Shown here one piece after another: positions 35,892 through 64,000 of a stretch of 64,000 nt of DNA (its first letter is position 1; every line of letters begins with the position of its first letter). This DNA comes from Nitrospirota bacterium (GTDB lineage Bacteria > Nitrospirota > UBA9217). The DNA is taken from contig DATIZR010000120.1 of assembly GCA_035516965.1 (NCBI GenBank), forward strand, positions 967 to 64,966. The letters run 5' to 3'. The notes beneath the pieces were generated by a model. It was not told the DNA's origin, made no database searches, and saw nothing but the letters and a program-made list of their open reading frames with translations. The position numbers were made by a program, and so were the translations under genes.

Positions 35892-36168
35892 AGGCTTTGC
35901 CCCTTTACGGTCTGCGCTGATGACCAAACAAGTGCGAACAGAACGGGCGAACAAAATATTGCAACAGCAGTTGGTCTCAGCGTCGAACCGCAATACCTCT
36001 CATGACAGGCCCCGCTAGGGAGCTTGCCACATAGAGATAATTAAAATATAGATATCGAGATAGGTTTTGTCAAAAAGCCGACAAAGGGAAGCGATACTAA
36101 AGACTGAGGAAATATTCTGGGAATGATTATGTGAAGGGTTATGTTAACGATAGGATGCCATGCCGTTC

Positions 36169-49029: not shown

Positions 49030-50421
49030 TCACGATGTACCTGGACTCGTGAGCCGGGAAGAGGTTCCGCCCTCGGAATGTGGCGCCCGTATCAGATGAT
49101 CCGATTCCTCGGTCAATACCGAGTCGATGATGTAGTCGCAAACGTCTTCCACGAAAAACGCGCCGTATTTCGATAAACGAACGAACCCATTCTCCTGCAG
49201 GAGACACCCAAAACCTCCGAGCTCCGAAAAGAGCCGGGAGAAGACATCCCGGGGGTCTGCGGCAAACCTGCCGTGAAACCGGCGGATATCGACGCCTTCA
49301 GCCAGCTGCAGGCTCAGCAAGAGCGTCCGGAACATCTGTTCCCGTCTGGTCAGGTCGATATATCTGCCGATCGGAAGCCCGCCTTTTCTGATGATGTTCG
49401 TATACGAGGAAAGCTCTTCATACTTATCATAGCAGATCGTTTTGGTATACGACCGCGCCCGCGAACCGAATGCGATGATCGGTATCTCTTTCAACCAGTA
49501 ATAGCGATAGGGCCATTGCGCGTCATTCGTAAAACTGCCATTCTGCTCGTATCCGTTCGCGCTCATCCATTCCTGCGTCCTGAACACGATGTCAAAAAGA
49601 GTGTCATTGCTCACGACCAGGCCGGGGTGTTCTTTGTAGAGCTTGACGATCAAGGGGTTCACGATCTCGTGCCTGATATACTCGACCGAATCAGGACGGA
49701 TTCCCTCAAGGATGGCCAGGTCAGCTTCCACACTGTCCATGGTCTGTCCGGGAAGTCCGGTCATCATGTCGATGTTGATCGATATCCCGGCATCCTGCAC
49801 GGCCCTCACGACGTCTGCGACCTGTCCCCGGGTGTTCTTTCTGTTGCAGCGAGCGAGGATCTCCTGGTCAAAGGTCTGGCAACCGATACTGAGCCTGTTG
49901 ATGCCGATATTCCGCAGTTCCCGTACCCGCTTTGCATCCGAGAGCGTGGCGGGATGCGCTTCCGACGTTACGTTGCACGCATGACTGAATCCGATGATAG
50001 AGGAAAGCTTTTCCAGTATACGGTTGATGTCGCGGCTGGGAAATGACGTGGGGGTTCCGCCGCCGAAATAGATGCATCGCGCCTTCTTGCCAGAGAATAC
50101 TCCGCGGCCCGCCACCAATTCTATCTCTTTCAGCAAATTCTCCAGATAATCATCCTGGGCTTCCCTGCTCACGGGATGAGGGAAGGAATTGCAGAACAGA
50201 CATTCGGAGAAACAGAACGGAAGGTGGACATAGAGCAAGAGCTCTTCTGCTACCAGGCTCTCTCTTACCCGCTCCAGAAAGCAGTCGGTCTGCGACGGGG
50301 CCAGTATCTTGAAGTGGTGAGGAATGAACAGGTCCGGCTGGCTCTTGGTGTAATCTACGGAGCCGTAGAAGAGTTTCTCTCGTATGATAGTCAGCGCTTC
50401 ATTGTGTATCATACTTCCCAT
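49030..50421 (-). CDS. HemN-like (oxygen-independent coproporphyrinogen oxidase family) radical SAM protein
   Basis: Start set at the ATG at 50421 (or 50412). Contains 'YVHLPFCFSECLFCNSF', 'IYFGGGTPT', 'RLSIGCQTFD' and a HemN_C-like tail. Confidence 0.8.
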   Translation of the reverse strand: MGSMIHNEALTIIREKLFYGSVDYTKSQPDLFIPHHFKILAPSQTDCFLERVRESLVAEELLLYVHLPFCFSECLFCNSFPHPVSREAQDDYLENLLKEIELVAGRGVFSGKKARCIYFGGGTPTSFPSRDINRILEKLSSIIGFSHACNVTSEAHPATLSDAKRVRELRNIGINRLSIGCQTFDQEILARCNRKNTRGQVADVVRAVQDAGISINIDMMTGLPGQTMDSVEADLAILEGIRPDSVEYIRHEIVNPLIVKLYKEHPGLVVSNDTLFDIVFRTQEWMSANGYEQNGSFTNDAQWPYRYYWLKEIPIIAFGSRARSYTKTICYDKYEELSSYTNIIRKGGLPIGRYIDLTRREQMFRTLLLSLQLAEGVDIRRFHGRFAADPRDVFSRLFSELGGFGCLLQENGFVRLSKYGAFFVEDVCDYIIDSVLTEESDHLIRAPHSEGGTSSRLTSPGTS

Positions 50422-50606
50422 TTCTCGAACGCCTACATGGACTTCCCTTGAAGACGCTGATCGTGGTCGACCTTCTTGACCGGAGCATTCGCACAGGACA
50501 GCGAGCCCCGGCCCCGGGAGCGGCGCCACGAATCAGCTGAACGGGGACCCCTGTGTACATACCCCGGCGCGCTTTCCGGATCGTCGCACCCTTCTCCCGG
50601 AGCTCT

Positions 50607-50885
50607 TTACTTCTTGTTATCGTAGATGAAGTTGGCGATGGTATTGATGGAGTGGAATATCTCCTTGCCCTGATCCATGTTCTTGACTTCGACGCCGAAG
50701 TTCCGCTGCAGCAGCACGACGATCTCCACGGCGTCCAGAGAGTCGAGCCCGAGCCCTTCCCCGAAGAGAACCTCATCGTCCTTGATGTCCGCCGGTTTGA
50801 CATCCTCGAGCGAAAGATCGCGGACGATCATTTCCTTGAGGTCCTTGCGGATTTGCACCAGTTCCTGTTCCTTTGCTTCTGCCAT
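50607..50885 (-). CDS. acyl carrier protein
   Basis: 92 aa. Contains 'LGLDSLDAVEIVVLLQRNFGV'. Confidence 0.88.
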   Translation of the reverse strand: MAEAKEQELVQIRKDLKEMIVRDLSLEDVKPADIKDDEVLFGEGLGLDSLDAVEIVVLLQRNFGVEVKNMDQGKEIFHSINTIANFIYDNKK

Positions 50886-51869: not shown

Positions 51870-53046
51870 AGACGTACCTTGCCTTCCGGATCGCAAGCGC
51901 GGCAAAGAAGACGATCGCGCCGGTCAGGAGGGCGAGGAGCGGCGCGATGACCAGCGAACCGAGAAGCCATTCATAGAGCCGTGCGGAGAACTGCTCGAAC
52001 ACTGTCTGGAACGAGAGATCGGTGAGCCATTGCCCGTGGCGCATATAGTATCCGACCTCGATGCAGAGCGCCGGCACCACGGGCGGCATCGCGATATGCT
52101 GGACGTTCAGGGACACGATCTTGTTCAGGTTCAGCCGCAGGGACACGTAGAGGATGACGAGCGAATGCACGAACAGAAGCGGCAGGACCGCCAGAAAGAC
52201 GCCAACTGCCGCGGACAGGGCAAGCCCCTCCGGAGTGGCGTTCTCCCTGATCAGCATCTTCAGCGCCTTCCCCGGGTGTCGCAGGAGGGAGAGGTTGAGT
52301 GCCGTTGCGGGCTTCACCAGTTTGTGATGCGGCACCGGCAGCAGTCGCCTGCCTACCAACATGGAATGGATGCCCGTGAGGCGAAGATTGTCCAGGAACG
52401 GCCGGAAGCTCGATACGCGCTCCCCGGGCTTCGGATAGCATACGGAGACGGGAACCGTTTTCAGCGTCAGTCCCGCCCAAGACGCCTTGGCAAGGACCTC
52501 GGCCTCGAAGTCGTAGCGGCTGCCCTTGAAGGTGAGCTGGTTCAGATAGCGGACCGGATAGGCGCGGAAGCCGCTCTGGCAATCATCAACCGTCACCCCG
52601 GTCTCCACCTTGAGCCAGAAGTTCGCGAAGGCCCTGCCGAACCTGCTCGAAGCCGGCACGTTCCCGGTATTGAAGTCCCGGGATCCGATGATGACGCTCC
52701 TGTCGTCCTCTTCGATTACCGGGAAAAACCGCCGGACATCGCTCGGGTCGTGCTGCCCATCAGCGTCGATGGTGATCATGAAGACGCCGCCGCGCTCCTC
52801 GATAGAGCGCGAGGCCGTGAGGATCGCCTGTCCTTTGCCGAGGTTCTTTTCGTGCTTCAGCATCACAACAGCAAGGCCGCCCAGCAGTGATGAGACGTCG
52901 GCATCCGTGCTGCCGTCGTCAACCACGATCACGTTTGAGAGCATGGCGAGGCATTGTTCCACGACGGTCCTGATGGTGGCCGCATTGTTATAGACCGGGA
53001 CCGCGATCCAGACGCGGCCGTCCGTGGCGTGCTTACTTAGGTGCAT
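51847..53046 (-). CDS. glycosyltransferase family 2 fused to a C-terminal polytopic (DUF2062-like) membrane domain
   Basis: ORF trimmed to the ATG at 53046 ('MHLSKHATDGRVWIAVPVYNN'). Contains 'VVDDGSTD' and 'TIDADGQHDP'. The C-terminal ~130 aa is hydrophobic. Confidence 0.75.
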   Translation of the reverse strand: MHLSKHATDGRVWIAVPVYNNAATIRTVVEQCLAMLSNVIVVDDGSTDADVSSLLGGLAVVMLKHEKNLGKGQAILTASRSIEERGGVFMITIDADGQHDPSDVRRFFPVIEEDDRSVIIGSRDFNTGNVPASSRFGRAFANFWLKVETGVTVDDCQSGFRAYPVRYLNQLTFKGSRYDFEAEVLAKASWAGLTLKTVPVSVCYPKPGERVSSFRPFLDNLRLTGIHSMLVGRRLLPVPHHKLVKPATALNLSLLRHPGKALKMLIRENATPEGLALSAAVGVFLAVLPLLFVHSLVILYVSLRLNLNKIVSLNVQHIAMPPVVPALCIEVGYYMRHGQWLTDLSFQTVFEQFSARLYEWLLGSLVIAPLLALLTGAIVFFAALAIRKARYVYVAGKGN

Positions 53047-54400
53047 GCCGCGCCCTCTCCTTGTTCTTCCCGGGAAGGAGCAGGTCCCACATCGGGCCCG
53101 TGTACCCGAGCTTGTGCAGGATCTGCAGGCTGTTGTCGTACGCGTCAGGCGGGAACACGCAGTGCCGCACACCTTCGAATGCCCTTGTCAGCCGTTCCTC
53201 AAGCTGCTTTTTGTCCACAGCGGGAGACAGATAGTAGACCGGATGGAGCATTCCTTCATCGGGCTTGATGAGGTTCTCCTTGACCGCGAGTCGGGCGAGC
53301 GGCGTGTCCGGGAGGATCCGGATCCCCATGAAGATGAACACGACGCATTTCTGCAGGGACAGGATGTTCCGAATGCCCTCCTCCACGGTCTCGGGCGTCT
53401 CGCCGGGCCCCCCGAACATAAAAAAGTGGGAAGTGGAGATTCCGTGGCGCGCGAACAGGTCATTGCATTCGATGACGTCCCGGAAGGTGAAGTTCTTGCC
53501 CATCTTCTTGAGCGTGGTGTCGCACGCGGCGTCGGCGCCTACTTCTGCAGCCGCGAAACCGGTCTTTTTCATGCGCTCCACGATCTCGTCGGTCAGCCCC
53601 CGGGGCTTGAAAAAACCCGTCCAGGGAATGGAGACGCTCCTGCGCTGCATCTCGTCGATCACCTCAAGGTAGGCACCCTCGTCATCATTGAAGACCGAGT
53701 CGACGAAGAAGAGGTATTTGGTCTTGAACCTGTCCCTGAGCAGCTCGATGTCGTCGACCACGGCCCGGGGCTCGCGCCGCCTGAGCTGCGAGCCTTCGAG
53801 CACGGGATAGGTGCAGTACACGCACTTATATGCGCAGCCGCGCTTCGTCTGAACGGACGCGATGTTGCCGCTGTGCAGATAGAACTCGAGCAGCCGTTCG
53901 TCGTACAGCGCCGACCCGATCCTGTCGCCGGCGATCCGCGCCGAGGGCCCGATGATAGGGTCGCGGGGATAGACACCCCGTGCCGCATTGTCCGCGAACT
54001 CGACGGCCAGGACCTCTCCCTCGCCGACGATGCCGTAATCCGCACCGGTCTCCTGCAGAATCAGCTCGGGGACCAGCGAGAAGCCGGCGCCGCCGAGCAA
54101 CACCTTTGCGGTCGATACCTTTTTCACCGTGGACACGATGTTCTTCACGTTCTGGATATAGTACTGCTCGCTCACGAGGTTCACATTGTCGATGTTGCGG
54201 ACCGAGATGCCGACGAGATCGGGCGCGTACTGCTTTACCTCGCTCCCGATGGCTTCGAGGGACGTCTTCTGCTGCAGAAAATCCGCCTGCAGGACCTCGT
54301 GGCCGGCATGGGTGAGGGCCGCCGCGATCATGCTCACGCCAAGCGGGTAGATCGGATAGGGAGACGTGGTCACATTCGCCGATATAAGAAGGATCTTCAT
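53033..54400 (-). CDS. B12-binding-domain radical SAM protein (lipid-cluster type)
   Basis: ORF trimmed to the ATG at 54400 ('MKILLISANVTTSPYPIYPLGVSMIAAALTHAGHEV'), which forms ATGA with the upstream stop. Radical SAM 'CAYKCVYC'. Confidence 0.8.
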   Translation of the reverse strand: MKILLISANVTTSPYPIYPLGVSMIAAALTHAGHEVLQADFLQQKTSLEAIGSEVKQYAPDLVGISVRNIDNVNLVSEQYYIQNVKNIVSTVKKVSTAKVLLGGAGFSLVPELILQETGADYGIVGEGEVLAVEFADNAARGVYPRDPIIGPSARIAGDRIGSALYDERLLEFYLHSGNIASVQTKRGCAYKCVYCTYPVLEGSQLRRREPRAVVDDIELLRDRFKTKYLFFVDSVFNDDEGAYLEVIDEMQRRSVSIPWTGFFKPRGLTDEIVERMKKTGFAAAEVGADAACDTTLKKMGKNFTFRDVIECNDLFARHGISTSHFFMFGGPGETPETVEEGIRNILSLQKCVVFIFMGIRILPDTPLARLAVKENLIKPDEGMLHPVYYLSPAVDKKQLEERLTRAFEGVRHCVFPPDAYDNSLQILHKLGYTGPMWDLLLPGKNKERARHAPK

Positions 54401-55668
54401 CGCGAGGTCCCCGTTACCATGTCCTTTTGCCACTTCCGCCGCCGCAGACGCGCCCCCTGGTAGGTGCCGTCCGCCTTTTCCTTCTCGATGACCTTCAGGA
54501 ACAGCTTCGCCATCCTGAGGTTCTGGCTGCTTTCCTGGTAAAAGGTGTCCCAGGCGTAGTAATAGAGGTCCTGAAGCCTGGACGGCGTCATCCTGGCCGG
54601 CTGATAGACCACCTTTCCTCCGGTGTAGTTCCGCCAGTCGTTCGACAGGATCCTTCCCTCCTTCGTCAGCGTTTCCCGGATCGGTGTGTGGGGGAACGGG
54701 GTCAGGATCGTGAACTCGGCAAGGTCGAGGTTGATCTCGAGCAGGAAATCCACAAGCCGCCTGATGTAGTCCTCGTCCTGTTCGTCGGTCCCCAGGATGA
54801 TCGTGCCCTCGACGCCGATGCCCCGCTCCTGCAGCCGCTTGACGCGGTTCCGGATGTAATCCGACGTGTCGAAGATCGCCTGGTACACGTACCAGCAGCC
54901 TGCCTGCGCCGCGAGATCCAGGATCTCGTCATTGTCCTTGATGGGATGGCAGACCCACTTCTTCTTGAGCGGGATCAGCGCCCGGAAGAGGTCTTTCTCC
55001 CACTGGTCGTTCTGCGCCATGGAGTTGTCCACGAAGAAGAGCCGGTTGTTGTCGATGGCCGCGACCTCGCGCACGACGTCGTCGATCGGCCTCGGACGGA
55101 ATTCACGTCCGCCGAGGAACGGCGTGCAGCACGGGAAACAGTTGAACCGGCAGCCGCGCGAGGCATGGATGAGGTCCACCATCTGGACGCCCCGGTAGTT
55201 GTACCGGTCGCGTTTGAGGATGTTCCGCCGGGCAGGGCCGACCAGCTTCATGTCCGGAAAATTCCACTGGTAGTCGTAGACCTTCCTGAGTTGTCCCCTC
55301 TTCAGGTCATCGATGACCTGGCCGAAACGGCCCTCTGCCTCGCCCAGGAACACGGCATCGGCGTGCGTCTTTGTCTCCTCGGCATGCAGCATGGTCCCGA
55401 TGCCGCCGAAGATGACCGGAACGCCTCTGCTCCGATAGCGGTCGGCGATCTCCCACCCCCTGGGGATCTGGCAAGTAAGCATGCAGGAGATGGCGACGAA
55501 GTCGACGGGTTCGTCGAAATCGATGTTTTCCACGTGCTCGTCGATAAAGCCCAGTTCGCAGTCGTCCGGCACAGTCGACGCAAAACAGATCGGCCCGTGC
55601 GGGGGGAGGTGAAATTCCGTCTGCCGTTCCAGTTTCGGCCATTGGGGGTATATCAGTTTAATCTTCAC
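54397..55668 (-). CDS. B12-binding-domain radical SAM protein
   Basis: 423 aa with a GTG start (GTGA overlap with the upstream gene). Contains 'VDFVAISCMLTCQ...VPVIFGGIG' followed by 'CRFNCFPC'. Confidence 0.75.
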   Translation of the reverse strand: MKIKLIYPQWPKLERQTEFHLPPHGPICFASTVPDDCELGFIDEHVENIDFDEPVDFVAISCMLTCQIPRGWEIADRYRSRGVPVIFGGIGTMLHAEETKTHADAVFLGEAEGRFGQVIDDLKRGQLRKVYDYQWNFPDMKLVGPARRNILKRDRYNYRGVQMVDLIHASRGCRFNCFPCCTPFLGGREFRPRPIDDVVREVAAIDNNRLFFVDNSMAQNDQWEKDLFRALIPLKKKWVCHPIKDNDEILDLAAQAGCWYVYQAIFDTSDYIRNRVKRLQERGIGVEGTIILGTDEQDEDYIRRLVDFLLEINLDLAEFTILTPFPHTPIRETLTKEGRILSNDWRNYTGGKVVYQPARMTPSRLQDLYYYAWDTFYQESSQNLRMAKLFLKVIEKEKADGTYQGARLRRRKWQKDMVTGTSR

Positions 55669-56387: not shown

Positions 56388-57509
56388 TCATGCCAGTACG
56401 ATCGCTGAATTGATGCCGCTGAACCCGGCATTCGTCACCAACGCATGCATACCCGTACTGACCGGTCTCAATCGGTCCGATACCCATCCCGCCGCATCAT
56501 CGTCGGGTGTGGTCAGGTTCACCGTTGGGGGGACGATCCCTTCCCGCAGCGCCCGCAGCGCCATGATCATCTCGACCAGCCCGGCAGCCCCCATGGTATG
56601 ACCGATGCCGCCTTTGATCGAGTATGCCGGGACTGCCGCGCCCGGGAAGACCTCCCGGAACGCCCGCATTTCCATGGCGTCGTTGTACACGGTCCCGGTG
56701 CCGTGGGCGCTGATGAACCCGATCTGTTCCCGGCCGACGCCGGCAGATGCCAATGCCTTTTTCAGGGCAAGGATCAGGCCTTCGCTCTCCCGCGACGGTC
56801 CGGTCATGTGATTGGCATCGTCGCTCAGTCCCCACCCGGCAATCTCGCCGAGCACCGGCATTCCCTCTCGCCGCGCCCGTTCCTCGCTCATGACAAGAGC
56901 GTATGCCGCGGCCTCGCCCACGCTCAAACCGGCCCTGCTCCGGTCAAAGGGCCTGGCCGGTGCCCGGTCGAGCGCCATGAGCGACGAGAAGCCGGAAAAA
57001 ATGAATTCCGTCACGCTGTCGCAGGCAACAACGAGCACCGCATCAGCGCGGCCGTTTTTGATCAGAGAGGCGGCCCGCGCTGCAGCGGCAGAGGATGAAG
57101 TGCAGGCTGCCGACATAACCATGCCCCCGCCGCGCGCCCCGCAGAGGTCTTCGACCTTGGTCAGGAGCCGGTCCAGGGTGCTGTCTTCCGGGTCTCCCCG
57201 GCCTTCGAGAACGAACCGCTCCAGGAGATCGATCTCTCCCTTGGTCGAAGCAAGCAGCAGCCTCGCATCAGCGGGGATCGCAGTCCCAGCATCCCTGAAG
57301 AGCATCCGGAGCATCTGCAGGACGAGCGAGCCGTCCCCGTTGTACTGCAGGCCCTGGACAATCCCCGCGCAGCCGGACTGGAAGGCCTCAGTCCTGAAGC
57401 GGGTGACCTGACCGATAGCCGTCCTGTTGTCAGTGACGCCTCTCCAGCAGGTATCCACACCAAGGCCGTAGGAGGTTACCATATCATGCGCGACAATGAC
57501 CGGTTTCAT
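56388..57509 (-). CDS. beta-ketoacyl-ACP synthase
   Basis: ORF trimmed to the ATG at 57509 ('MKPVIVAHDM'), ATGA with the thioesterase stop. Contains 'SAACTSSSAA', 'SAHGTGTVYND' and 'GIGHTMGAAG'. Confidence 0.82.
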   Translation of the reverse strand: MKPVIVAHDMVTSYGLGVDTCWRGVTDNRTAIGQVTRFRTEAFQSGCAGIVQGLQYNGDGSLVLQMLRMLFRDAGTAIPADARLLLASTKGEIDLLERFVLEGRGDPEDSTLDRLLTKVEDLCGARGGGMVMSAACTSSSAAAARAASLIKNGRADAVLVVACDSVTEFIFSGFSSLMALDRAPARPFDRSRAGLSVGEAAAYALVMSEERARREGMPVLGEIAGWGLSDDANHMTGPSRESEGLILALKKALASAGVGREQIGFISAHGTGTVYNDAMEMRAFREVFPGAAVPAYSIKGGIGHTMGAAGLVEMIMALRALREGIVPPTVNLTTPDDDAAGWVSDRLRPVSTGMHALVTNAGFSGINSAIVLA

Positions 57510-57991
57510 GGATGCTGGTGGAACTCTCCCGACTTCCATCTTTTCCTGACCCGCTCGATCAGTTCCGGAGATATGATGCAGGCCTCGCCGGTCCGGTGAT
57601 CCGTAAAGAGCTGGACCGTGTAGCCACTGGTGGCCACCGTGCCATCCCCTTTGAGCAGCTGGAATTCGGTGTTCAGCTTCGCTCCTTCATGCCAGATCAG
57701 AGATGCCCTGATCGTGAACTCCTCGTCCAGGAAGATCGGCCGGTAGTAGTCGATATGGAGGTCCACAATGGGCGCGCGGAGGCCCGCTTCGAAGAAGTCC
57801 CTGTAGGACAGTCCACACCGTCTTCCAAGCTCCTCGGATGCTTCCTCGAAGTAGAGCGGGTACCTGCCGTGCCACGCGATCGCCATCGGGTCGGCCTCAT
57901 TGAAGCGCACGCGACGTCTGATATCAACGACGATGGGAGCCGGCGCTCCGGCAATCCGCTCAAAATAGGTTGTCTTCCTCCGTGGTATCAT
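57506..57991 (-). CDS. 4HBT/YbgC-type acyl-CoA (or acyl-ACP) thioesterase
   Basis: 161 aa hotdog protein with 'VRFNEADPMAIAWHGRYPLYFEEA'. Confidence 0.75.
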   Translation of the reverse strand: MIPRRKTTYFERIAGAPAPIVVDIRRRVRFNEADPMAIAWHGRYPLYFEEASEELGRRCGLSYRDFFEAGLRAPIVDLHIDYYRPIFLDEEFTIRASLIWHEGAKLNTEFQLLKGDGTVATSGYTVQLFTDHRTGEACIISPELIERVRKRWKSGEFHQHP

Positions 57992-58000
57992 CGTCTCGTC

Positions 58001-58372
58001 TCAGTCGGTGAAGGCGACCCGCAATTTCAGTTCCGCAATCTTGGTGTCTCCCCGCGTGATCATCGTCTTGAACGTGAATTCGCCTGCATCGAGGACGTCA
58101 CTGCATGAGCAGGTGATCTCCTCGCCCGGGGCGACCGGCGCGAAGTATTTGGCAAGGACGACTTCCCGGAGCGCGGCATGCCGGTGCTTCGCCTGTTCCA
58201 GCGATGAGAGCGCGCATTGGATCTGGCATACACCGGGCAGGACCTTGTTGTCCGGGAAATGCCCCTGGAACCCGACGAAATCCGCGGGAAAGCGGAACCG
58301 GGACGTGACCGTCCGCTCCCGCGATTCCAAGGCGCTCATGCAGCGCACGATCTCAGCCTTCACCTTTGTCAC
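58001..58372 (-). CDS. FabZ/FabA-like 3-hydroxyacyl-ACP dehydratase
   Basis: 123 aa with a GTG start. Catalytic-His context 'FQGHFPDNKVLPGV'. Confidence 0.75.
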   Translation of the reverse strand: MTKVKAEIVRCMSALESRERTVTSRFRFPADFVGFQGHFPDNKVLPGVCQIQCALSSLEQAKHRHAALREVVLAKYFAPVAPGEEITCSCSDVLDAGEFTFKTMITRGDTKIAELKLRVAFTD

Positions 58373-59076
58373 TCGCGAATCTCCTTCTGCCGCACGATCA
58401 AGCGGTATCCGTTCCGGTAGTTCGAGAGAACAATGCCCATGGGATAGAGCCTGCCGTTCCTGCTCCGGTGCTCGTAATAAGATACCCTCCAGACAGCGCG
58501 GTGGTCTTCCCGGTACGTCTTGCTGGTCAGAGGCAGCCCCTCGCCGGAGAACTCATACTCCAGGGCCCCGTCGCCGGACCGCTGCCGGAACAGGATAGCC
58601 TGTCTCCTCTTCACCACACGTGCATCGAGCGAGGGTACGAGGTCCAGATAGATCCGCTTGATGTCCTCTGCGACCACTGACGCGATGTCCCCCTGTCGGG
58701 CCAGCGGTTCTATCATGTACTTGTGGGTCAGGCCGTTCCGGTCGCCTTCGAACTCTAAGATCTTGACGCCGAGGTAGTTCATGCAAACGACCTTGTATCG
58801 CCCGGCAGTGGTGTCTACATCGAGGTATCCGATCCCGGAAACGGAGAACCAATTATACTCAAAAACAATGGAGCTGAGCAAATGAAAATCATCGGGAACA
58901 GCTCTTCCGAACCGCTCCGCCACTGCCACAGGATCGGCATCGTCCACGGCGACTGGCGCCGCAGCGCGGAAGGGAACGGGCGAAGCGCAGCCAAACAGCA
59001 ATCCCGCAAGAAGCGCCGCCGGAACAATCGTTTTCACAGCGCCTGCTCCCGGTTTGCCGGCGTCAGGATGCTGCAC
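58369..59076 (-). CDS. lipoprotein (possibly DUF3261-like, as in aryl-polyene-type clusters)
   Basis: Lipobox 'LLAGLLFGC'. No enzymatic motif seen. The start is uncertain because the ORF overlaps the MMPL gene by 43 nt. The family name is a recollection. Confidence 0.5.
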   Translation of the reverse strand: MQHPDAGKPGAGAVKTIVPAALLAGLLFGCASPVPFRAAAPVAVDDADPVAVAERFGRAVPDDFHLLSSIVFEYNWFSVSGIGYLDVDTTAGRYKVVCMNYLGVKILEFEGDRNGLTHKYMIEPLARQGDIASVVAEDIKRIYLDLVPSLDARVVKRRQAILFRQRSGDGALEYEFSGEGLPLTSKTYREDHRAVWRVSYYEHRSRNGRLYPMGIVLSNYRNGYRLIVRQKEIRE

Positions 59077-61424
59077 AGCGACGGGACGACAATGACCGAG
59101 GAGAGGTAGCCCGTTGTCATGCAGATCACCATGGCGATGCTCGTCGAGTAGAACGCTGGATGCTTGGCAAAGAGGAGGACTCCAGCCCCGATGATGTTCG
59201 TCGCGGCCGACAGCGTCACGGCGACTACCGTTCCGATCCTGAGGTTGTACCGGTACTCATAGGTCATGCCGAGGCCGTAATCCACGATGACGCCGGTCGT
59301 CACGATCGCGGCGACGATATTCACCACGTTCAGGGGTATCTTGAAGATCGCCATGAAACCGATGAGCCACGTCACGCCCGTGATGACCGGGACCAGGGAG
59401 ATGAAGGCCTCCCGCCAATTCCGGAAGAAGAACCACGCCAGCACCACGTTGAACAGGAACGCGAGCGGTGCCAGGATCTTCGCTTCCCGGATCGTGAACG
59501 CCGATATGGAATCTGACAGCTTCCTGCCCGAAACGATGAAGGAGCCTGGATGGTCCCGTGCGATCGCGCTGAGAGCATCGACAGAGGACGGCTCGTCCGG
59601 AAAAAAGGAAAGGACCCTGCATGAATCGTCCCGGCGCACAACAAAGCGCTCCTGGATCCGCGCCACCATGCCGTTCGCATTATTATTTCCCGCGACCCGA
59701 TGGCTGTACAGCCCGCTGAAAAAGGGAGCGAAGGCCCGGTCCGAAAAACCGTATTGCGCCGAGGCCCGGCTGATCATGATCCGGAGCTTCGCTTCCCTGC
59801 CGGTCCGCCAAAAACTGTCCCAGCGCTGCGCATTCTCCCGTCTGGTCCTTTCCGACGCCCAGAACATCCCGATGTTCGTGAAATTCTCCGGGCCGACCAC
59901 CGCTGACGCTTCGCGGTACACGCGGTCATTCAGTTCCATCGCCTCTTCATAGGTCTTCGCCTGAACGACGAAGATCGCCTGGTTGCTCTTGCCTCCCCAG
60001 GTGTCGTGGAAGTTCTGCTCCGCCTTGAGGACCGACGGTTCGCTCCCGTCGAGTTTCTTCACGTCGCTGTCGAACTTAACCTGGAACGAGAATACGAGTG
60101 CCGCGGCGGTCAGGAGCGACCAGACGACAACGATCGTCCGGGCCGGCCAGCGGACCTTTTTCATCCGGTTGCCGATCGTCGGGTCCGACGCGAGGGAGTA
60201 CCGGTCCCAGGACAGGACGAGAGGAAGGACCGCGAGGGAGAGCCCCAGGCAGAGAAGCACGCAGAGCATCGAGAACAGCGACAGCTGATGGTATCCCCGG
60301 ATCACCGAGAAATAAAGCACGAAAAAGCTGAATACTGTGGTGATTGCGTCGATAGACACGAGCTTCGCGAGCTTCACCATCTGGGATGCGTCGGCTCCCC
60401 GCTTCATGGCTATGTAGACCAGAAGGCCGTAGTCGATCGAGATGCCGGCGATCGCCGTTCCGAACCCGATGACCAGGTAGGACAGCGTCCCCTCCGCAGC
60501 GCTCGTCAGGATGATCGACCAGAGTACAGCGATGATCGGGATGACGTAGACGAAGAAGACCCTCAGGTCACGAAAGACGACCAGGAAGAGAACCATGAAC
60601 GCGATCGAAGCGATCGCCGATGCGGTCTTGATGTCGCGGGTGATCACTTTTTCATTGCTCACCGTATGCAGGTGGCCGCCGATGACATCCGCGGTAACAC
60701 TCTCAGGCAAGCGCCCGAGCTCCCCTTCCAGCACCCGGAGGAGCTCTTTGCTCCGCTGGCTGTCCGTCATGGGAACAGAGGTCTGGGCGATCACCATCGC
60801 GTGGCGGCCGTCGCGGCTCACGAAGTGGCCGTCCTCGACGGCGACGTCGTAACCCATGGATGCGGGAAGGGCCTTTAGCTTTCCGTAGAGCAGCGACTTA
60901 ATCCCGAGCGGGTCCGTTCGGGAGAAGGATGCCGTGAAGATGCTCTCGGGCCGGAAGGACTGGAGATAGATCTGCTTGAGTTTTGCGGCAACGGCCGGCG
61001 GCGTGATCTCGTGGTCCAGCGCCGCCAGTTCATCCCCCGTCAGAACTTGCGGCGCATACTGGAGCACCGAAAACTCATCCATCGCGTCGGCCACGGAGAT
61101 GCCGGACATGACCTTGGTGAACAGCGGCGGCGTGAGCGCGGCGGACAGCTGGTCGACGGCGGAGAAGAGCTCTTTCTTTCCCTTTTCCGGGTCGTTCAAT
61201 GCAAGAGAAATGATGATCTTGTCGGACAGGTTCGATTCGCGCAGGAACTGCAGGCTCCTCGTGACTTCCGGGTCAGGGGGGAGCATGAGGTCGATGTTTC
61301 CTTCGTAGCGGATTAGGGTCAGCCCGGCAACGGCTGCCGCCGTGAAACACGCGATGATCAGCAGGACAAGCCGCTTGTGCGCCCGCGAGAGCTCAAAAAG
61401 GCGCGAAAAAAAGCGATCACCCAT
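59034..61424 (-). CDS. MMPL/RND-superfamily lipid exporter
   Basis: 796 aa. Two repeats, each made of a large soluble loop plus a hydrophobic bundle (for example 'IASIAFMVLFLVVF...', 'LAFLFNVVLAWFFF...'). Confidence 0.8.
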   Translation of the reverse strand: MGDRFFSRLFELSRAHKRLVLLIIACFTAAAVAGLTLIRYEGNIDLMLPPDPEVTRSLQFLRESNLSDKIIISLALNDPEKGKKELFSAVDQLSAALTPPLFTKVMSGISVADAMDEFSVLQYAPQVLTGDELAALDHEITPPAVAAKLKQIYLQSFRPESIFTASFSRTDPLGIKSLLYGKLKALPASMGYDVAVEDGHFVSRDGRHAMVIAQTSVPMTDSQRSKELLRVLEGELGRLPESVTADVIGGHLHTVSNEKVITRDIKTASAIASIAFMVLFLVVFRDLRVFFVYVIPIIAVLWSIILTSAAEGTLSYLVIGFGTAIAGISIDYGLLVYIAMKRGADASQMVKLAKLVSIDAITTVFSFFVLYFSVIRGYHQLSLFSMLCVLLCLGLSLAVLPLVLSWDRYSLASDPTIGNRMKKVRWPARTIVVVWSLLTAAALVFSFQVKFDSDVKKLDGSEPSVLKAEQNFHDTWGGKSNQAIFVVQAKTYEEAMELNDRVYREASAVVGPENFTNIGMFWASERTRRENAQRWDSFWRTGREAKLRIMISRASAQYGFSDRAFAPFFSGLYSHRVAGNNNANGMVARIQERFVVRRDDSCRVLSFFPDEPSSVDALSAIARDHPGSFIVSGRKLSDSISAFTIREAKILAPLAFLFNVVLAWFFFRNWREAFISLVPVITGVTWLIGFMAIFKIPLNVVNIVAAIVTTGVIVDYGLGMTYEYRYNLRIGTVVAVTLSAATNIIGAGVLLFAKHPAFYSTSIAMVICMTTGYLSSVIVVPSLCSILTPANREQAL

Positions 61425-62094
61425 GTCCTTTTACCTCGAAGCTGGAACTGTCCAGGGGAACGTTCAGGAGGGTGTTGAGGAAGATGATGGTCGTGACATC
61501 CCCGCTCACCTCCTTGATCCGTATCTGCTTGAGGTACTTCCCATCGTCCCGGAACGTGATCGTGATGCTTTTGATGACCTTCCTGGCCACGTTCTTCTCC
61601 TGCGGGACGAACTCGAGCACGAGGGGATCGTTCTGCACCTGCCGGATATCATTTACCGCGAGAAGCGACGAGTAGTCGCCGGAGAACCAGACCGTGATCT
61701 GGTTCAGCACATTCTGAAAGATTGGATTCTTCGCAAGAGATATTTCCTGCACCCTGTTCGTGTCCTCGTCCCACTGCCGTATGACCCTGTCCGTGATCAG
61801 GACCGAATAGCGTACCGGGGAATCGACATGCCAGGCGACCTTGTTCGGTTTTTGCAGATAGATCCGGCCTTTCATGACGAGCTTCTCCTTGAACATGGCC
61901 ATCTCTTTTTCCTGCAAAAAATCCGTCTTCAGCGTGGAGAAGTCGGAAACCCTCTTCCCCAGCTCGGCCAGGAACACCGCCATGTCGGGTTGCCCCCCGG
62001 CAGGTTTCTCGGATGCAATCAGCGTCACGGGAAGGTTGACGAACACCAGGAGGAGGATCGGCGCACAAAACTTCATCAGTTTTCGCAGGAGCAT
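61417..62094 (-). CDS. LolA-like periplasmic lipid/lipoprotein carrier protein
   Basis: Signal peptide 'FCAPILLLVFVNLPVTLIAS'. 'FLQEKEMAMFKEKLVMKGRIYLQKPNKVAWHV...IRQWDEDTN' is LolA-like. Confidence 0.62.
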   Translation of the reverse strand: MLLRKLMKFCAPILLLVFVNLPVTLIASEKPAGGQPDMAVFLAELGKRVSDFSTLKTDFLQEKEMAMFKEKLVMKGRIYLQKPNKVAWHVDSPVRYSVLITDRVIRQWDEDTNRVQEISLAKNPIFQNVLNQITVWFSGDYSSLLAVNDIRQVQNDPLVLEFVPQEKNVARKVIKSITITFRDDGKYLKQIRIKEVSGDVTTIIFLNTLLNVPLDSSSFEVKGHG

Positions 62095-63584
62095 TACTTG
62101 TTCACCGTTTCCACGCCGCTCTGATAGACCTTGACCTCGCCGCGGGCGACCAGTTCAGCGCCGTGGTGTATCTCGCCGTGCACGATCCCGAAATCGCCGT
62201 ACTTCGCGGTCTTCACGACGGAGATGCGGAGTGTGTCGCCGGCCCTCGCGGACCCAAGGACCTCGAGCTTCTTGATGCCGAGCAGGAAACCTTCCGGCTG
62301 CGAGTCCCGGCTGCCGAGCTTGCGGAACCCCTCCTGCGCGGCGATCGCCTGGGAAATGATTTCCGGATAGGAGGCCTCGTCCAGGGTCCCGCTGCCGTTC
62401 ATGAAGATAGAGTCAGCCTTCACGGTCATTTCCGAGACAGAGGCGCGCTCTTTCATCTCGATCAGCCGGTCGATCTGAAGCATCGGGGGCTTATGCGGCA
62501 CGAGGAGGGCCGCGTCAACGGGGAGGTAGAGGATCTCCTCTTTTTTGTCCAGGTTCTTCCAGCAGAGCGGATCAGAGGCAAGATAATCACCGGTCAATTG
62601 ATAGGCCGCACCGCGGCAGCCGTAACACTCGTTCAGGTGTTCGCAGGAACCGCAGGGACCCTTGATCATGTGCCGGTAACGCTTCAGGTCCTGGACGACC
62701 TCGCTATCCCCCAGGATGTCCTTGAGCTTTTTTTCCCGCACATTGCCGATCGGGATCGTGACACCCACGCAGGGCTGTACGTTGCCTTCGGAGCTGACGG
62801 CGCAGGAGAACTGGTGCCTGAGGCAGACCCCGCCCACGAGCGGCGGCCTGGGGTCCCAGTGATTCCCGTACTTCCTGCGGTCGAGCTCGGCGATCTTGTG
62901 AAAAAACTCTTCCGCCTGGCTGGTGGTGATGTCGAGGGCGGCATTGTCCTTTGCCCCGCCCTGGGGCGTGATCATCTCGAAATAGGGCGCGATGTTCTGG
63001 TCCCGCAGCCATTCCCACAGCCGGGGAAGCTCTTCGATGTTCTGCTGACAGATGATGGTGCTGACGCCCATGAACCGGTCTTCCGACGGATAGCCGGCCT
63101 TCTTCAGATTGTTGAAGGCGTCACGGATCTGCGTGTAGGCTCCCTTTTTCCCGGACAGCGTGTCCTGCAGTTTTTCATCGAAGGTGTTCATCTTGAGCAC
63201 GACCCTCACCTTCAGGTCATAGAGCGTGGCGGCCATGTCCGGCGTGATGCCCGTCCCGTTCGTGAACAGCTCGATCTCCAGGGAAAGGCCCCGGATGAAC
63301 CGGATCATCTCCAAAATGGGGGGATAGAGCATGGGCTCGCCGCCGAGCACGATGATCTTGCGCGCTCCCAGGTCCTTTGCCTGGGTGATGACCTCCTGGA
63401 ACTGTTCCTTCGTGAGCTCGTTCCGCTTCCGGCCGTTCTCGAAGGCATAGCAGTAGACGCAGCGGAAATTGCAGACGCTGTTGAACTCGATTTCCATCGA
63501 CAGCAGCCTGCCGTTTTGGACCGCTTCTGCGATTTCTGCGGCGGAGAATTCCGCCGCGTAGATGCGTGTCTGACAAGTATTCAT
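62094..63584 (-). CDS. fusion protein: radical SAM/SPASM domain (N) + hotdog dehydratase-like domain (C)
   Basis: 496 aa. 'CNFRCVYC' (63450..63473). SPASM-like 'CLRHQFSC...VQPCVG...GPCGSCEHLNECYGCRG'. C-terminal ~140 aa 'LLVPHKPPMLQIDRL...' resembles the hotdog dehydratases of aryl-polyene clusters. Confidence 0.75.
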   Translation of the reverse strand: MNTCQTRIYAAEFSAAEIAEAVQNGRLLSMEIEFNSVCNFRCVYCYAFENGRKRNELTKEQFQEVITQAKDLGARKIIVLGGEPMLYPPILEMIRFIRGLSLEIELFTNGTGITPDMAATLYDLKVRVVLKMNTFDEKLQDTLSGKKGAYTQIRDAFNNLKKAGYPSEDRFMGVSTIICQQNIEELPRLWEWLRDQNIAPYFEMITPQGGAKDNAALDITTSQAEEFFHKIAELDRRKYGNHWDPRPPLVGGVCLRHQFSCAVSSEGNVQPCVGVTIPIGNVREKKLKDILGDSEVVQDLKRYRHMIKGPCGSCEHLNECYGCRGAAYQLTGDYLASDPLCWKNLDKKEEILYLPVDAALLVPHKPPMLQIDRLIEMKERASVSEMTVKADSIFMNGSGTLDEASYPEIISQAIAAQEGFRKLGSRDSQPEGFLLGIKKLEVLGSARAGDTLRISVVKTAKYGDFGIVHGEIHHGAELVARGEVKVYQSGVETVNK

Positions 63585-64000
63585 GGGCTCTTTCTCTTAT
63601 CGACGAACCTGGTTAATTTCCGGGCATTCCCGGTGTAGACCTGTTTTCGCACTTCATCCTCGCTCGTGACGATCACTTCCGGCCTGACCCGCAGATGGAC
63701 CTGGAGCCTGTCCATGATCATCGCGGCAGTGCAGTCCTTGTCCTTCACCGCCACCGTGACCGTGATCCTGTCGGAAAGGTCGTAGTCGCTCGTCGCCGTA
63801 ACGTAGTATTCGCTGACTCCCGGGAAAGAATCGAGGACAGCATAGAGCGAGTTCGGGTAGAGCGTCGTCCCCCGGAACTTGATCATCTGCTTCTTTCTGC
63901 CAAGGATGGGACCGAGCCGGGGCGAGAACCTTCCGCAGGAGCATGGCTCGCCGGTCAGGAAACTGACATCGCCCGTCCGGAACCTGAACAGCGGCATTCC
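63581..64000 (-). CDS. phenylacetate-CoA ligase (PaaK)/F390-synthetase-family adenylating enzyme, C-terminal part only (gene runs off the window)
   Basis: 'FRFRTGDVSFLTGEPCSCGR...LGRKKQMIKFRGTTLYPNSL' is typical of the PaaK-family C-terminal region. ATGA overlap with the next gene (63581..63584). Confidence 0.7.
   Translation of the reverse strand, partial: GMPLFRFRTGDVSFLTGEPCSCGRFSPRLGPILGRKKQMIKFRGTTLYPNSLYAVLDSFPGVSEYYVTATSDYDLSDRITVTVAVKDKDCTAAMIMDRLQVHLRVRPEVIVTSEDEVRKQVYTGNARKLTRFVDKRKSP

What the first reader, a model, noticed from the sequence alone, without database searches (positions are those of the whole stretch)
62094..63584. Radical SAM/SPASM enzyme fused to an ACP-dependent hotdog dehydratase-like domain
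- The N-terminal ~350 aa carries 'CNFRCVYC' (63450-63473) plus a SPASM-like cysteine array ('GPCGSCEHLNECYGCRG').
- The C-terminal ~140 aa (about 62097-62522) begins 'LLVPHKPPMLQIDRL'. That matches my memory of the hotdog dehydratases in aryl-polyene clusters.
- SPASM radical SAM enzymes are best known from peptide maturation and anaerobic sulfatase maturation.
- Fusion to a fatty-acid-type hotdog argues that this one acts on an acyl-ACP, or on a hydroxyacyl/enoyl intermediate delivered by the hotdog domain.
- The gene sits between the PaaK-like ligase and the LolA/MMPL export genes and is ATGA-coupled to the ligase.
Basis: partly seen in the sequence, partly recalled or inferred. Interest (0 to 1): 0.75.

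Follow-up and report, generated by a model that had tools for sequence, protein, structure and literature searches.

The report
Radical SAM enzyme fused to half-dehydratase
This gene joins an iron-sulfur "radical SAM" enzyme to one half of a two-part fatty-acid-type dehydratase, in a lipid-building gene cluster of unknown product found in hundreds of anaerobic bacterial species, which suggests radical chemistry is wired directly into lipid chain building.

Summary
ORF 62094-63584 (-) encodes a 496-aa protein with a radical SAM core (CX3CX2C and GGE motifs), a full SPASM domain with eight conserved cysteines, and a C-terminal ApeP-type hotdog domain.

The fusion is not an artefact. More than 120 protein clusters and at least 80 species genomes carry it full length, in a gene order conserved across several phyla.

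The hotdog domain is only half a dehydratase. It keeps the catalytic helix Glu (E408, invariant) but lacks the catalytic His. The standalone ApeI-like gene at 58001-58372 has the reverse pattern: His in 56 of 57 sequences and Gln at the Glu position in 52 of 57. The two should therefore form a heterodimer with a single active site, as in the solved ApeI:ApeP complex (PDB 6QSR).

Gene fission and fusion variants in the same cluster support this. They include rSAM-SPASM followed by an ApeP-ApeI didomain gene, and a triple fusion whose confident model matches PKS double-hotdog dehydratase domains.

The radical reaction and the pathway product remain unknown. A sister branch has lost the SAM motifs but keeps the SPASM domain and the Glu. 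No curated family or paper describes the fusion, so I rate it a new variant of known kinds, with interest about 0.65.

The parts
62094..63584 (-). Whole gene: 496-aa rSAM-SPASM-ApeP-like fusion protein
   Evidence: ORF list, Pfam and NCBIfam scans, full-length orthologs
63012..63488 (-). Radical SAM core, residues 33-191, including the GGE motif at residues 81-83
   Evidence: PF04055, 88.8 bits; GGE kept wherever CX3CX2C is kept; fold matches SkfB, SuiB and anSME
63450..63473 (-). CX3CX2C motif (C38, C42, C45) that binds the SAM-cleaving [4Fe-4S] cluster
   Evidence: Read directly from the sequence; invariant in 31 orthologs
62562..62825 (-). SPASM domain, residues 254-341, with eight conserved Cys (C254, C261, C272, C311, C314, C320, C323, C341), predicted to bind two auxiliary clusters
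   Evidence: PF13186, 31.3 bits; invariant Cys; alignment to the PqqE SPASM motif
62115..62531 (-). ApeP-like hotdog domain, residues 352-490: the Glu-donating half of a heterodimeric 3-hydroxyacyl-ACP dehydratase
   Evidence: 6qsr_B hit at E 1.7e-6, and 1.1e-10 with the family profile; Foldseek to FabZ and ApeP, TM 0.71-0.78 relative to target
62361..62363 (-). Codon of Glu408 on the central hotdog helix, aligned to the Glu of ApeP 'IEMMAQ'
   Evidence: Alignment to 6qsr_B; invariant in A1, A2 and A4 and kept in nearly all 56 hotdog-bearing representatives
58001..58372 (-). Standalone ApeI-like hotdog protein (123 aa): the predicted His-donating partner (His38 in 'GHFP'; Gln52 at the FabZ-Glu position)
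   Evidence: Pfam ApeI-like and FabA hits, weak; alignments to PfFabZ and 6qsr_A; His in 56/57 and Gln in 52/57 sequences; present in 54 of 60 loci with enough downstream sequence
63581..64000 (-). 3' end of a PaaK/ApeH-type adenylate-forming ligase gene, which runs off the window; ATGA-coupled to the fusion gene
   Evidence: ortholog in L003 has AMP-binding plus AMP-binding_C_2; adjacent in 74 of 78 loci
61417..62094 (-). LolA-like carrier (ApeL equivalent)
   Evidence: PF03548; best NCBIfam hit LolA2_flexi, 115 bits, below its cutoff of 125; present in 70/73 loci
59034..61424 (-). MMPL/RND-type transporter (ApeM equivalent)
   Evidence: PF03176; weak HpnN-like hits; present in 62/64 loci
58369..59076 (-). 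Conserved 235-aa protein with no family match, in the slot of ApeN
   Evidence: No Pfam or NCBIfam hit; present in 58/60 loci
57506..57991 (-). 4HBT-type thioesterase (ApeK equivalent)
   Evidence: PF13279 and PF03061
56388..57539 (-). Ketosynthase (ApeO equivalent)
   Evidence: PF00109 and PF02801
55665..56336 (-). Short KS-like protein, probable chain-length factor (ApeC equivalent)
   Evidence: Weak PF00109 hit; conserved next to the KS
54397..55668 (-). B12-binding radical SAM enzyme
   Evidence: present in 42/49 loci
53033..54433 (-). TIGR04072 'lipid biosynthesis B12-binding/radical SAM protein'
   Evidence: 624 bits against a cutoff of 360; present in 42/47 loci
50607..50885 (-). Acyl carrier protein of the cluster
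   Evidence: PF00550

Best explanation
The gene encodes a bifunctional subunit of an aryl-polyene-like type II PKS/FAS pathway. Its N-terminal 345 residues are a complete SPASM-class radical SAM enzyme. Its C-terminal 140 residues are an ApeP-type hotdog protomer that supplies only the catalytic Glu (E408) of a 3-hydroxyacyl-ACP dehydratase. The missing catalytic His comes from the standalone ApeI-like protein encoded five genes downstream (58001-58372), so the two proteins form a heterodimer with one complete active site at their interface. As a result, the radical SAM module is held permanently on the dehydratase of the chain-elongation machinery (KS/CLF, KR, ACP). It most likely uses the 5'-deoxyadenosyl radical to modify the ACP-tethered chain at or just after the dehydration step, with the two SPASM clusters handling the electron. 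The finished lipid is then acylated or glycosylated and exported by the LolA/MMPL genes. Shown: the domain content, residue conservation, recurrence of the fusion, synteny and the gene fission/fusion pattern. Inferred: heterodimer formation, dehydratase activity, an ACP-bound substrate for the radical step, and the type of radical reaction, which is unknown.
For: Domain architecture: Pfam; PDB sequence hits to PqqE and SkfB for the N-terminal part and to ApeP (6qsr_B) for the C-terminal part; Foldseek to FabZ, ApeP, SkfB, SuiB and anSME.

Complementary half-sites: E408 is invariant and there is no His at the ApeP/FabZ His position. The ApeI-like sequences have His in 56/57 and Gln at His+14 in 52/57. 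The FabZ active site lies at the dimer interface and uses His plus Glu or Asp (PMC10139942). APE ApeI/ApeP is described as a heterodimer with a single active site, and in A. baumannii ApeI is fused to the ApeH ligase (PMC8041823).

Rosetta-stone evidence from the same cluster slot: an rSAM-SPASM gene overlapping an ApeP-ApeI didomain gene (L083-L085); an rSAM-SPASM-ApeP-ApeI triple fusion (L082); the same Glu and His pattern in all of these. The triple-fusion model is confident (pLDDT 86, pTM 0.86), and its ApeP+ApeI part matches single-site double-hotdog PKS DH domains.

Conserved operon: ligase 74/78, LolA 70/73, MMPL 62/64, ApeI 54/60, KS 48/52 and TIGR04072 42/47 loci across several phyla. 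Gene junctions overlap. No other DH-type hotdog was found in the cluster.
Against: No experiment exists for any member. The single-sequence Pfam ApeP-like score (23.4 bits) is below the gathering cutoff (27), and only 7 of 23 diverse members hit that model at E <= 1e-3. I could not obtain model coordinates, so the His-Glu distance and the rSAM-to-tunnel distance are unmeasured. The model of the window protein itself is poor (pLDDT 60). Of 27 full-length fused representatives, 16 have lost both CX3CX2C and GGE while keeping the SPASM cysteines and E408, and one such gene sits in the same cluster slot. So the conserved role of the family may be the dehydratase half plus Fe-S clusters rather than radical chemistry. 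X. doucetiae ApeP has both His and Glu, and its ApeI has His and Asp, so the strict half-site split seen here is not identical to the solved reference. In 6 of 60 loci no ApeI-like gene was detected.
Confidence: 0.7

Rival explanations
1. The hotdog domain is catalytically inert. It serves only as an acyl-chain or ACP docking module (or a thioesterase-like binder) that delivers substrate to the rSAM enzyme, and dehydration is done by ApeI alone or by the housekeeping FabZ.
For: The domain lacks the catalytic His. The single-sequence ApeP-like score is below the Pfam cutoff. Hotdog folds also serve as thioesterases and binding modules, and thioesterases appear in the fold-search lists.
Against: E408 and Q412 on the central helix are invariant across the whole family, down to about 28% identity, which is unexpected for a mere docking module. 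The ApeI-like partner lacks the Glu (Gln in 52/57), so it could not form a complete site on its own. Repeated ApeP-ApeI gene fusions argue for an obligate pair. The best matches are FabZ and ApeP, not 4HBT thioesterases.
Confidence: 0.12
2. The rSAM-SPASM module is mainly a structural or electron-transfer (Fe-S) appendage of the dehydratase, for example a redox partner for the neighbouring B12-rSAM enzymes, and does not itself perform radical chemistry on the lipid.
For: A large sister branch lost CX3CX2C and GGE but kept all the SPASM cysteines and the hotdog Glu, in the same cluster slot. The cluster contains several other rSAM enzymes that need reductants.
Against: In the window's clade CX3CX2C and GGE are invariant across 31 orthologs at 68-97% identity, and both are kept in the more divergent intact fused representatives (42-49% identity). 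That indicates purifying selection on SAM binding. The core scores strongly as Radical_SAM (88.8 bits).
Confidence: 0.12
3. The protein is a peptide (RiPP) or cofactor maturase of the PqqE/AhbD/SkfB type, and the hotdog fusion is incidental.
For: The best NCBIfam and PDB hits for the N-terminal part are AhbD, NirJ2, PqqE and SkfB. One database record is even labelled PqqE.
Against: All these hits are far below the family cutoffs (for example AhbD 142 bits against 500, and PqqE 114 against 381). The gene sits in a conserved lipid/PKS operon across phyla, with no precursor-peptide or tetrapyrrole genes annotated nearby. The fusion partner is an acyl-ACP enzyme domain.
Confidence: 0.03
4. The fusion is an assembly, frameshift or gene-calling artefact.
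For: Short 'standalone' hotdog hits exist.
Against: Those hits are contig-end fragments or frameshifted copies: L001 has the same gene order with a 104-aa rSAM piece just upstream. More than 120 protein clusters at 90% identity and at least 80 species genomes carry the same continuous frame of about 495 aa.
Confidence: 0.01

Closest known systems
ApeI:ApeP heterodimeric dehydratase of aryl-polyene clusters (Xenorhabdus doucetiae, PDB 6QSR)
   Same: The C-terminal domain is the closest sequence and fold relative of ApeP. An ApeI-like partner is encoded in the same operon. The literature describes a heterodimer with one active site (PMC8041823). The cluster inventory is the same: ligase, ACP, KS/CLF, KR, TE, LolA, RND transporter, GT, acyltransferase (PMC8253772).
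   Different: Here the ApeP protomer is fused to a 345-aa rSAM-SPASM enzyme. It has lost the His that X. doucetiae ApeP retains. The partner has Gln where X. doucetiae ApeI has Asp. The cluster carries up to seven rSAM genes that are absent from APE clusters.
Acinetobacter baumannii ApeH-ApeI fusion
   Same: This is a precedent for one dehydratase protomer being fused to another enzyme of the same pathway and still pairing with the free protomer (PMC8041823).
   Different: There the fused protomer is ApeI and the partner enzyme is the acyl-ACP synthetase. Here it is ApeP fused to a radical SAM enzyme, and the ligase is a separate, translationally coupled gene.
SPASM-class radical SAM enzymes (PqqE, anSME, SkfB, SuiB, AhbD/NirJ)
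   Same: CX3CX2C core, a GGE motif, and a SPASM cysteine array that aligns with PqqE, including the 'LTGD..DP.C' tail. The fold matches SkfB, SuiB and anSME.
   Different: All equivalog cutoffs are missed by a wide margin. The known members act on peptides, proteins or tetrapyrroles. In what I found, none is fused to a fatty-acid-type hotdog domain. The spacing is CX2CX5CX2C rather than the CX2CX5CX3C I recall as canonical.
Jaw5/C10P HemN-like radical SAM cyclopropanases acting during polyketide elongation
   Same: It may work like these. They are rSAM enzymes proposed to attack the alpha,beta-unsaturated thioester produced by the DH while the chain is still carrier-bound (PMC13459092).
   Different: They belong to a different rSAM class (HemN-like, two SAM molecules, no SPASM), are not fused to the DH, and have a known product. 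Here there is no evidence for the type of reaction.
Double-hotdog DH domains of modular PKS and FAS (CurK, CurF, RzxB, MlnB, PpsC)
   Same: The modelled ApeP+ApeI pair in the triple fusion superposes on these single-site pseudo-dimers (about 290-310 aligned columns, TM 0.54-0.64 relative to target).
   Different: The order of the halves is reversed: here the acid-donating half comes first and the His-donating half second. In the window the two halves are separate polypeptides.
Anammox putative ladderane 'Cluster I' and the related deltaproteobacterial clusters (Rattray 2009)
   Same: They share a TIGR04072-type B12-rSAM (624 bits), a KS plus degenerate KS pair, a dedicated ACP, a dehydratase and a phytoene-dehydrogenase-like flavoenzyme (PMC2649909; bioRxiv 10.64898/2026.05.19.726425).
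   Different: Anammox Cluster I has a homomeric amxFabZ, and no SPASM-hotdog fusion or LolA/MMPL export genes are listed for it in those papers. The organisms here are Nitrospirota, Geobacterales, Omnitrophota and others, which are not known to make ladderanes.

Membership tests
Radical SAM superfamily (PF04055) | CX3CX2C motif that binds the SAM-cleaving cluster | tested here: met
   C38, C42, C45; invariant in 31 orthologs
Radical SAM superfamily (PF04055) | Profile score above the curated cutoff, and a SAM-binding GGE motif | tested here: met
   88.8 bits against 29.5; GGE at residues 81-83, kept together with CX3CX2C
Radical SAM superfamily (PF04055) | Reductive cleavage of SAM to the 5'-deoxyadenosyl radical | not testable with these tools
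   Needs an anaerobic enzyme assay
SPASM subclass (PF13186) | C-terminal cysteine array for two auxiliary [4Fe-4S] clusters | tested here: met
   31.3 bits against 21.5. C254, C261, C272, C311, C314, C320, C323 and C341 are invariant. Aligns to the PqqE SPASM motif. The spacing is CX2CX5CX2C, not the CX2CX5CX3C I recall as canonical
SPASM subclass (PF13186) | Physical presence of two auxiliary clusters | not testable with these tools
   Needs Fe/S quantitation, EPR or a structure
AhbD / NirJ / PqqE / MftC equivalogs (NCBIfam) | Score above the family's curated cutoff | tested here: not met
   AhbD 142 against 500; NirJ2 130 against 500; PqqE 114 against 381; MftC 83 against 265. Not a member of any named SPASM equivalog
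ApeP-like dehydratase protomer (PF22817) | Profile score above the curated cutoff | tested here: inconclusive
   23.4 bits against 27 for the window protein. Only 7 of 23 diverse members hit at E <= 1e-3, and one tested relative (P0187) passes the cutoff at 28.7 bits. The precomputed tables list PF22817 for all close homologs
ApeP-like dehydratase protomer (PF22817) | Homology to solved ApeP, and a hotdog fold | tested here: met
   6qsr_B at E 1.7e-6 with the single domain and 1.1e-10 with the family profile. Foldseek probability 1.0, TM 0.71 relative to 6qsr_B and up to 0.78 relative to the top FabZ-type hit (9a6k_A)
ApeP-like dehydratase protomer (PF22817) | Pairs with an ApeI protomer encoded in the same cluster | tested here: met
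   Genomic level only. An ApeI-like gene lies at 58001-58372 and is present in 54 of 60 loci. ApeP-ApeI gene fusions exist. Physical pairing was not tested
FabZ/FabA homodimeric dehydratases | Catalytic His (GHFP-type motif) and catalytic Glu or Asp in the same chain | tested here: not met
   The His position is a variable Thr/Lys/Arg. Only the Glu (E408) is kept. Not a FabZ or FabA
Aryl-polyene (APE) biosynthetic gene cluster | ApeH-type ligase, ACP, KS/CLF, KR, ApeI/ApeP, thioesterase, LolA, RND transporter, GT and acyltransferase in one operon | tested here: met
   compared with the E. coli Ape gene table (PMC8253772)
Aryl-polyene (APE) biosynthetic gene cluster | An aryl-polyene carboxylic acid product from a 4-hydroxybenzoate-type starter | not testable with these tools
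   The product is unknown. The many extra rSAM genes suggest a different, modified product
Anammox ladderane 'Cluster I' | A B12-rSAM of the TIGR04072 type next to ACP, KS and a degenerate KS | tested here: met
   624 bits against 360; KS and CLF are adjacent
Anammox ladderane 'Cluster I' | Restricted to ladderane-producing anammox bacteria, with a homomeric amxFabZ | tested here: not met
   The hosts are Nitrospirota, Geobacterales, Omnitrophota and others, and the dehydratase is a split ApeI/ApeP type

The most novel reading that the evidence does not exclude
The fusion physically couples dehydration to a radical step in every elongation cycle. The freshly made 2-enoyl- or polyenoyl-ACP would pass from the ApeI/ApeP tunnel straight into the rSAM site. 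There, H-abstraction and SPASM-mediated electron handling would form C-C bonds or rings as the chain grows. This is the 'type c', ring-by-ring logic that has been proposed but never demonstrated for ladderanes. If so, hundreds of anaerobic species in several phyla would make a still undiscovered class of cyclised or cross-linked ketoacyl lipids for their outer membranes.
Probability: 0.15. Interest if true: 0.9.

Novelty: new variant of a known kind. Interest (0 to 1): 0.65.

Why it matters
[quoted passage not shown] It also notes that the rSAM enzymes of the ladderane-type clusters have not been characterised, and Dietl et al. (PMC10139942) report that heterologous expression of the putative cluster has so far failed to yield the rSAM enzyme.

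This fusion narrows down where one such enzyme should work: on the dehydratase of an ACP-dependent elongation system. That narrows the substrate search to 3-hydroxyacyl-, enoyl- or polyenoyl-ACP and makes the enzymology testable with defined partners: the ApeI-like protein, the cluster ACP and the KS/CLF pair.

The family is large (at least 542 species genomes have a relative) and sits in a conserved operon that includes TIGR04072. Solving it would therefore annotate a widespread 'ladderane/arylpolyene-like' cluster type whose product is unknown.

The naturally occurring split, double-fused, triple-fused and SAM-motif-dead variants also offer a ready-made set of controls.

Tried and rejected
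1. I searched with the hotdog domain alone for free-standing close orthologs. The hits are contig-end fragments or frameshifted copies of the fused gene, so they are not evidence of unfused forms. Genuine unfused arrangements were found only among more distant relatives.

2. The first AlphaFold model, of the window protein, was poor (pLDDT 60, shallow alignment). I used it only for the confident hotdog and core regions.

3. Model coordinates are not exposed, so I could not measure the His-Glu distance or the rSAM-to-tunnel distance.

4. The original ApeI:P structural paper (JACS 2019) is not held. I relied on secondary descriptions (PMC8041823, PMC8253772) and on the PDB sequence alignments.

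5. I tested whether the second rSAM-SPASM gene in the window (45955-47718) is a close paralog. It is not (23% identity over 93 aa).

6. I looked for cultured or named hosts. All recovered members are MAGs with generic names.

7. I considered a conserved N-terminal Cys as a cluster ligand. It is invariant only in the window's clade and present in 14 of 27 wider representatives, so I did not pursue it.

8. Four literature searches for the fusion or for a characterised cluster of this type found nothing specific.
Full report
**1. The observation**

The minus-strand ORF 62094-63584 is a continuous 496-aa frame. CNFRCVYC is residues 38-45 (63450-63473). GPCGSCEHLNECYGCRG is residues 309-325. LLVPHKPPMLQIDRL begins at residue 360.

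Pfam finds three domains:
- Radical_SAM, residues 33-191, 88.8 bits, cutoff 29.5.
- SPASM, residues 254-314, 31.3 bits, cutoff 21.5.
- ApeP-like, residues 358-490, 23.4 bits, just under the cutoff of 27.

The start overlaps the stop of the upstream ligase gene (ATGA). The stop overlaps the LolA start by one base. Most junctions further down the operon also overlap.

**2. The fusion is real and widespread**

More than 120 protein clusters at 90% identity, with 68-97% identity to the query, share the same length and domain list. The best 80 all match over the full length at 52-81% identity. They come from Nitrospirota/Thermodesulfovibrionia, Geobacterales and other 'Deltaproteobacteria', Omnitrophota, Planctomycetota, Verrucomicrobiota, Lentisphaerae and Deferribacteres, and all are MAGs.

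In the search of 50%-identity representatives, fused proteins persist down to about 30% identity. Apparent free-standing hotdog hits are fragments or frameshifts.

**3. The N-terminal module**

Thirteen cysteines are invariant across 31 orthologs:
- C38, C42 and C45, the radical SAM motif.
- C254, C261, C272, C311, C314, C320, C323 and C341, the SPASM array.
- C4 and C179.

The GGE SAM-binding motif (residues 81-83) is present. The C-terminal SPASM stretch aligns residue for residue with that of PqqE, including the LTGD..DP.C tail. The fold matches SkfB, SuiB, anSME and BlsE.

No named SPASM equivalog is reached: AhbD scores 142 against 500, NirJ2 130 against 500 and PqqE 114 against 381. The module is therefore a full SPASM-class radical SAM enzyme of an uncurated family.

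**4. The C-terminal module is half a dehydratase**

Its best PDB relative by sequence is chain B of 6QSR, which is ApeP of the X. doucetiae ApeI:ApeP dehydratase heterocomplex. The E-value is 1.7e-6 for the single domain and 1.1e-10 with the family profile. The modelled domain superposes on FabZ structures and on 6qsr_B, with TM 0.71-0.78 relative to the target.

In the alignment, the query's invariant E408 faces the Glu of ApeP's central helix (IEMMAQ). The ApeP/FabZ catalytic His position holds a variable Thr, Lys or Arg. E408 and Q412 are kept in nearly all 56 hotdog-bearing representatives.

The standalone 123-aa protein at 58001-58372 is ApeI/FabZ-like and shows the mirror image. The GHFP His is kept in 56 of 57 sequences. 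The residue 14 positions later, which aligns with the FabZ catalytic Glu, is Gln in 52 of 57.

FabZ and FabA active sites lie at the dimer interface and need a His plus a Glu or Asp (PMC10139942). That the two residues come from opposite protomers is textbook knowledge of FabA and FabZ, not something tested here. A homodimer of either protein would therefore lack a complete site, and the heterodimer would have exactly one. That matches the published description of ApeI/ApeP as a heterodimer with a single active site. The same paper reports that ApeI is fused to the ApeH ligase in A. baumannii, which sets a precedent for fusing one protomer to another pathway enzyme (PMC8041823).

**5. Gene fission and fusion evidence**

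The same cluster slot occurs in several arrangements:
- (A) rSAM-SPASM-ApeP with a separate ApeI, as in the window.
- (B) A 361-aa rSAM-SPASM gene whose end overlaps an ApeP-ApeI didomain gene of about 300 aa (L083-L085).
- (C) A single rSAM-SPASM-ApeP-ApeI polypeptide in Aminicenantes and related contigs (P0179, P0306, P0308-P0310; L082).
- (D) Acyltransferase-ApeP-ApeI (P0316).
- (E) Acyltransferase-pseudo-rSAM-SPASM-ApeP (P0213).

In all of these the ApeP part carries the helix Glu and the ApeI part carries GHF.

A single-chain AlphaFold model of the triple fusion is confident (mean pLDDT 86, pTM 0.86). Its ApeP+ApeI portion matches the single-site double-hotdog DH domains of RzxB, CurK, CurF, MlnB and PpsC over about 290-310 columns. 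I could not access coordinates to measure distances.

**6. Context**

Around the fused gene the order is ligase, fusion, LolA, MMPL, a conserved unknown, ApeI-like, 4HBT thioesterase, KS, CLF-like, B12-rSAM, TIGR04072 B12-rSAM, then GT2-DUF2062. This order is conserved across phyla. Counting only loci with enough flanking sequence, the figures are ligase 74/78, LolA 70/73, MMPL 62/64, ApeI 54/60, KS 48/52 and TIGR04072 42/47.

Upstream, beyond the window edge, a close relative encodes KR, a phytoene-dehydrogenase-like amine oxidase, KS, ACP and a PlsC-type acyltransferase. Phe-tRNA synthetase genes bound the cluster on that side.

In the window the cluster continues down to about 36.2 kb. It contains seven radical SAM genes in all, a second ligase, a second KS pair, a HemN-like rSAM next to an ACP, and an alpha/beta-hydrolase-rSAM-SPASM fusion.

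The inventory maps onto the E. coli ApeA-R table (PMC8253772). It also shares its ACP, KS plus degenerate KS, PDH-like enzyme and B12-rSAM core with the putative anammox ladderane cluster and its deltaproteobacterial relatives (PMC2649909; bioRxiv 10.64898/2026.05.19.726425). The product is unknown.

**7. Mechanism**

Shown: the architecture, residue conservation, complementary half-sites, fusion variants and synteny.

Strongly inferred (about 0.75): the protein and the ApeI-like protein form the cluster's single-site 3-hydroxyacyl-ACP dehydratase.

Inferred (about 0.45): the tethered rSAM acts on the ACP-bound chain at or right after dehydration. This would resemble how Jaw5 is proposed to act on enoyl intermediates, and the 'type c' ring-by-ring proposals for ladderanes (PMC13459092, PMC10139942). 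The type of reaction (C-C bond formation, desaturation or other) cannot be deduced from the sequence.

**8. A caveat that matters**

Of 27 full-length fused representatives, 11 keep both CX3CX2C and GGE. The other 16 have lost both but keep the SPASM cysteines and E408/Q412. One such gene sits in the same operon slot (L086).

The invariant unit of the family is therefore SPASM plus the Glu-bearing hotdog. Radical chemistry is conserved in the window's clade, where the motifs are invariant in 31 orthologs, but it is dispensable elsewhere. This keeps alive the rival view that the Fe-S module has a structural or electron-transfer role.

**9. Novelty**

Automatic annotation sees the two domains; for example, IMG names some members 'MoaA/NifB/PqqE/SkfB family radical SAM enzyme/predicted hotdog family 3-hydroxylacyl-ACP dehydratase'. 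However, no curated family covers the protein and names are generic or wrong, such as 'PqqE'. Four full-text searches found no description of the fusion. The 2026 review of lipid-modifying rSAM enzymes lists only ladderanes and the Jaw5 product as ketoacyl cases.

I rate it a new variant of known kinds: a SPASM rSAM enzyme joined to an ApeP protomer. It is not categorically new.

**10. Verdict**

Interest is 0.65. The most novel reading that remains open is co-elongation radical cyclisation producing a new lipid class, with probability about 0.15.

Noticed in passing
window 45955-47718 (-): A second unusual fusion in the same cluster: an N-terminal alpha/beta-hydrolase/thioesterase domain joined to a radical SAM core and a SPASM domain (587 aa). 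It is not a close paralog of the query (23% identity over 93 aa). Some representatives (P0194, P0229) carry the rSAM-SPASM part at the C-terminus of a longer protein whose N-terminal part has no Pfam hit.
   Followed up: partly
window 36169-64000 (-): The cluster holds seven radical SAM genes, starting at 62094, 54397, 53033, 49030, 45955, 39139 and 36169. It also has two adenylate-forming ligases and two KS pairs. This is an unusually rSAM-rich ketoacyl-lipid cluster.
   Followed up: partly
window 49030-50529 (-): A HemN-like (class C type) radical SAM gene lies immediately downstream of an ACP gene (50607-50885). This is the same enzyme class as the Jaw5 and C10P cyclopropanases.
   Followed up: no
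window 53033-54433 (-): A strong TIGR04072 match (624 bits, cutoff 360): the 'lipid biosynthesis B12-binding/radical SAM protein' family first noted beside proposed ladderane genes, here in a Nitrospirota-like genome.
   Followed up: partly
L086 10001-11449; P0187, P0189, P0206, P0338-P0341: A sister branch of the family has lost both CX3CX2C (P0341 has CxCxxC instead) and the GGE motif. It keeps all the SPASM cysteines and the hotdog Glu, and occupies the same operon slot.
   Followed up: partly
P0156 (720 aa), P0314 (727 aa): These are rSAM-SPASM-ApeP proteins with a LolA domain fused at the C-terminus. In the window the two genes overlap by a single base (TAATG), so these could be real fusions or could result from loss of the stop codon.
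   Followed up: no
P0316 (607 aa, 25 contigs); P0213 (717 aa): PlsC-type acyltransferase fused to ApeP-ApeI, or to pseudo-rSAM-SPASM-ApeP. This links the dehydratase pair to the lipid acyl-transfer step as well.
   Followed up: no
L084 5663-6195; L085 5306-5838: A RelB/YafQ toxin-antitoxin pair is inserted inside the cluster, after the thioesterase and a small unannotated gene and before the KS.
   Followed up: no
window 58369-59076 (-): A conserved 235-aa protein with no Pfam or NCBIfam match, present in 58 of 60 related loci, between the MMPL and ApeI-like genes. It sits where APE clusters have the LolB-like ApeN (DUF3261).
   Followed up: no
window 63573-63575 and 63048-63050 (-): Cys4 and Cys179 are invariant in the window's clade (31 sequences) although they lie outside the canonical motifs. 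A Cys within the first 15 residues is present in only 14 of 27 wider fused representatives.
   Followed up: partly
window 29022-35993 (-): Just beyond the lipid cluster lie a DUF5752 gene, a TreT-type trehalose synthase and two alpha-amylase-family genes, which form an apparent trehalose/glucan module unrelated to the finding.
   Followed up: no
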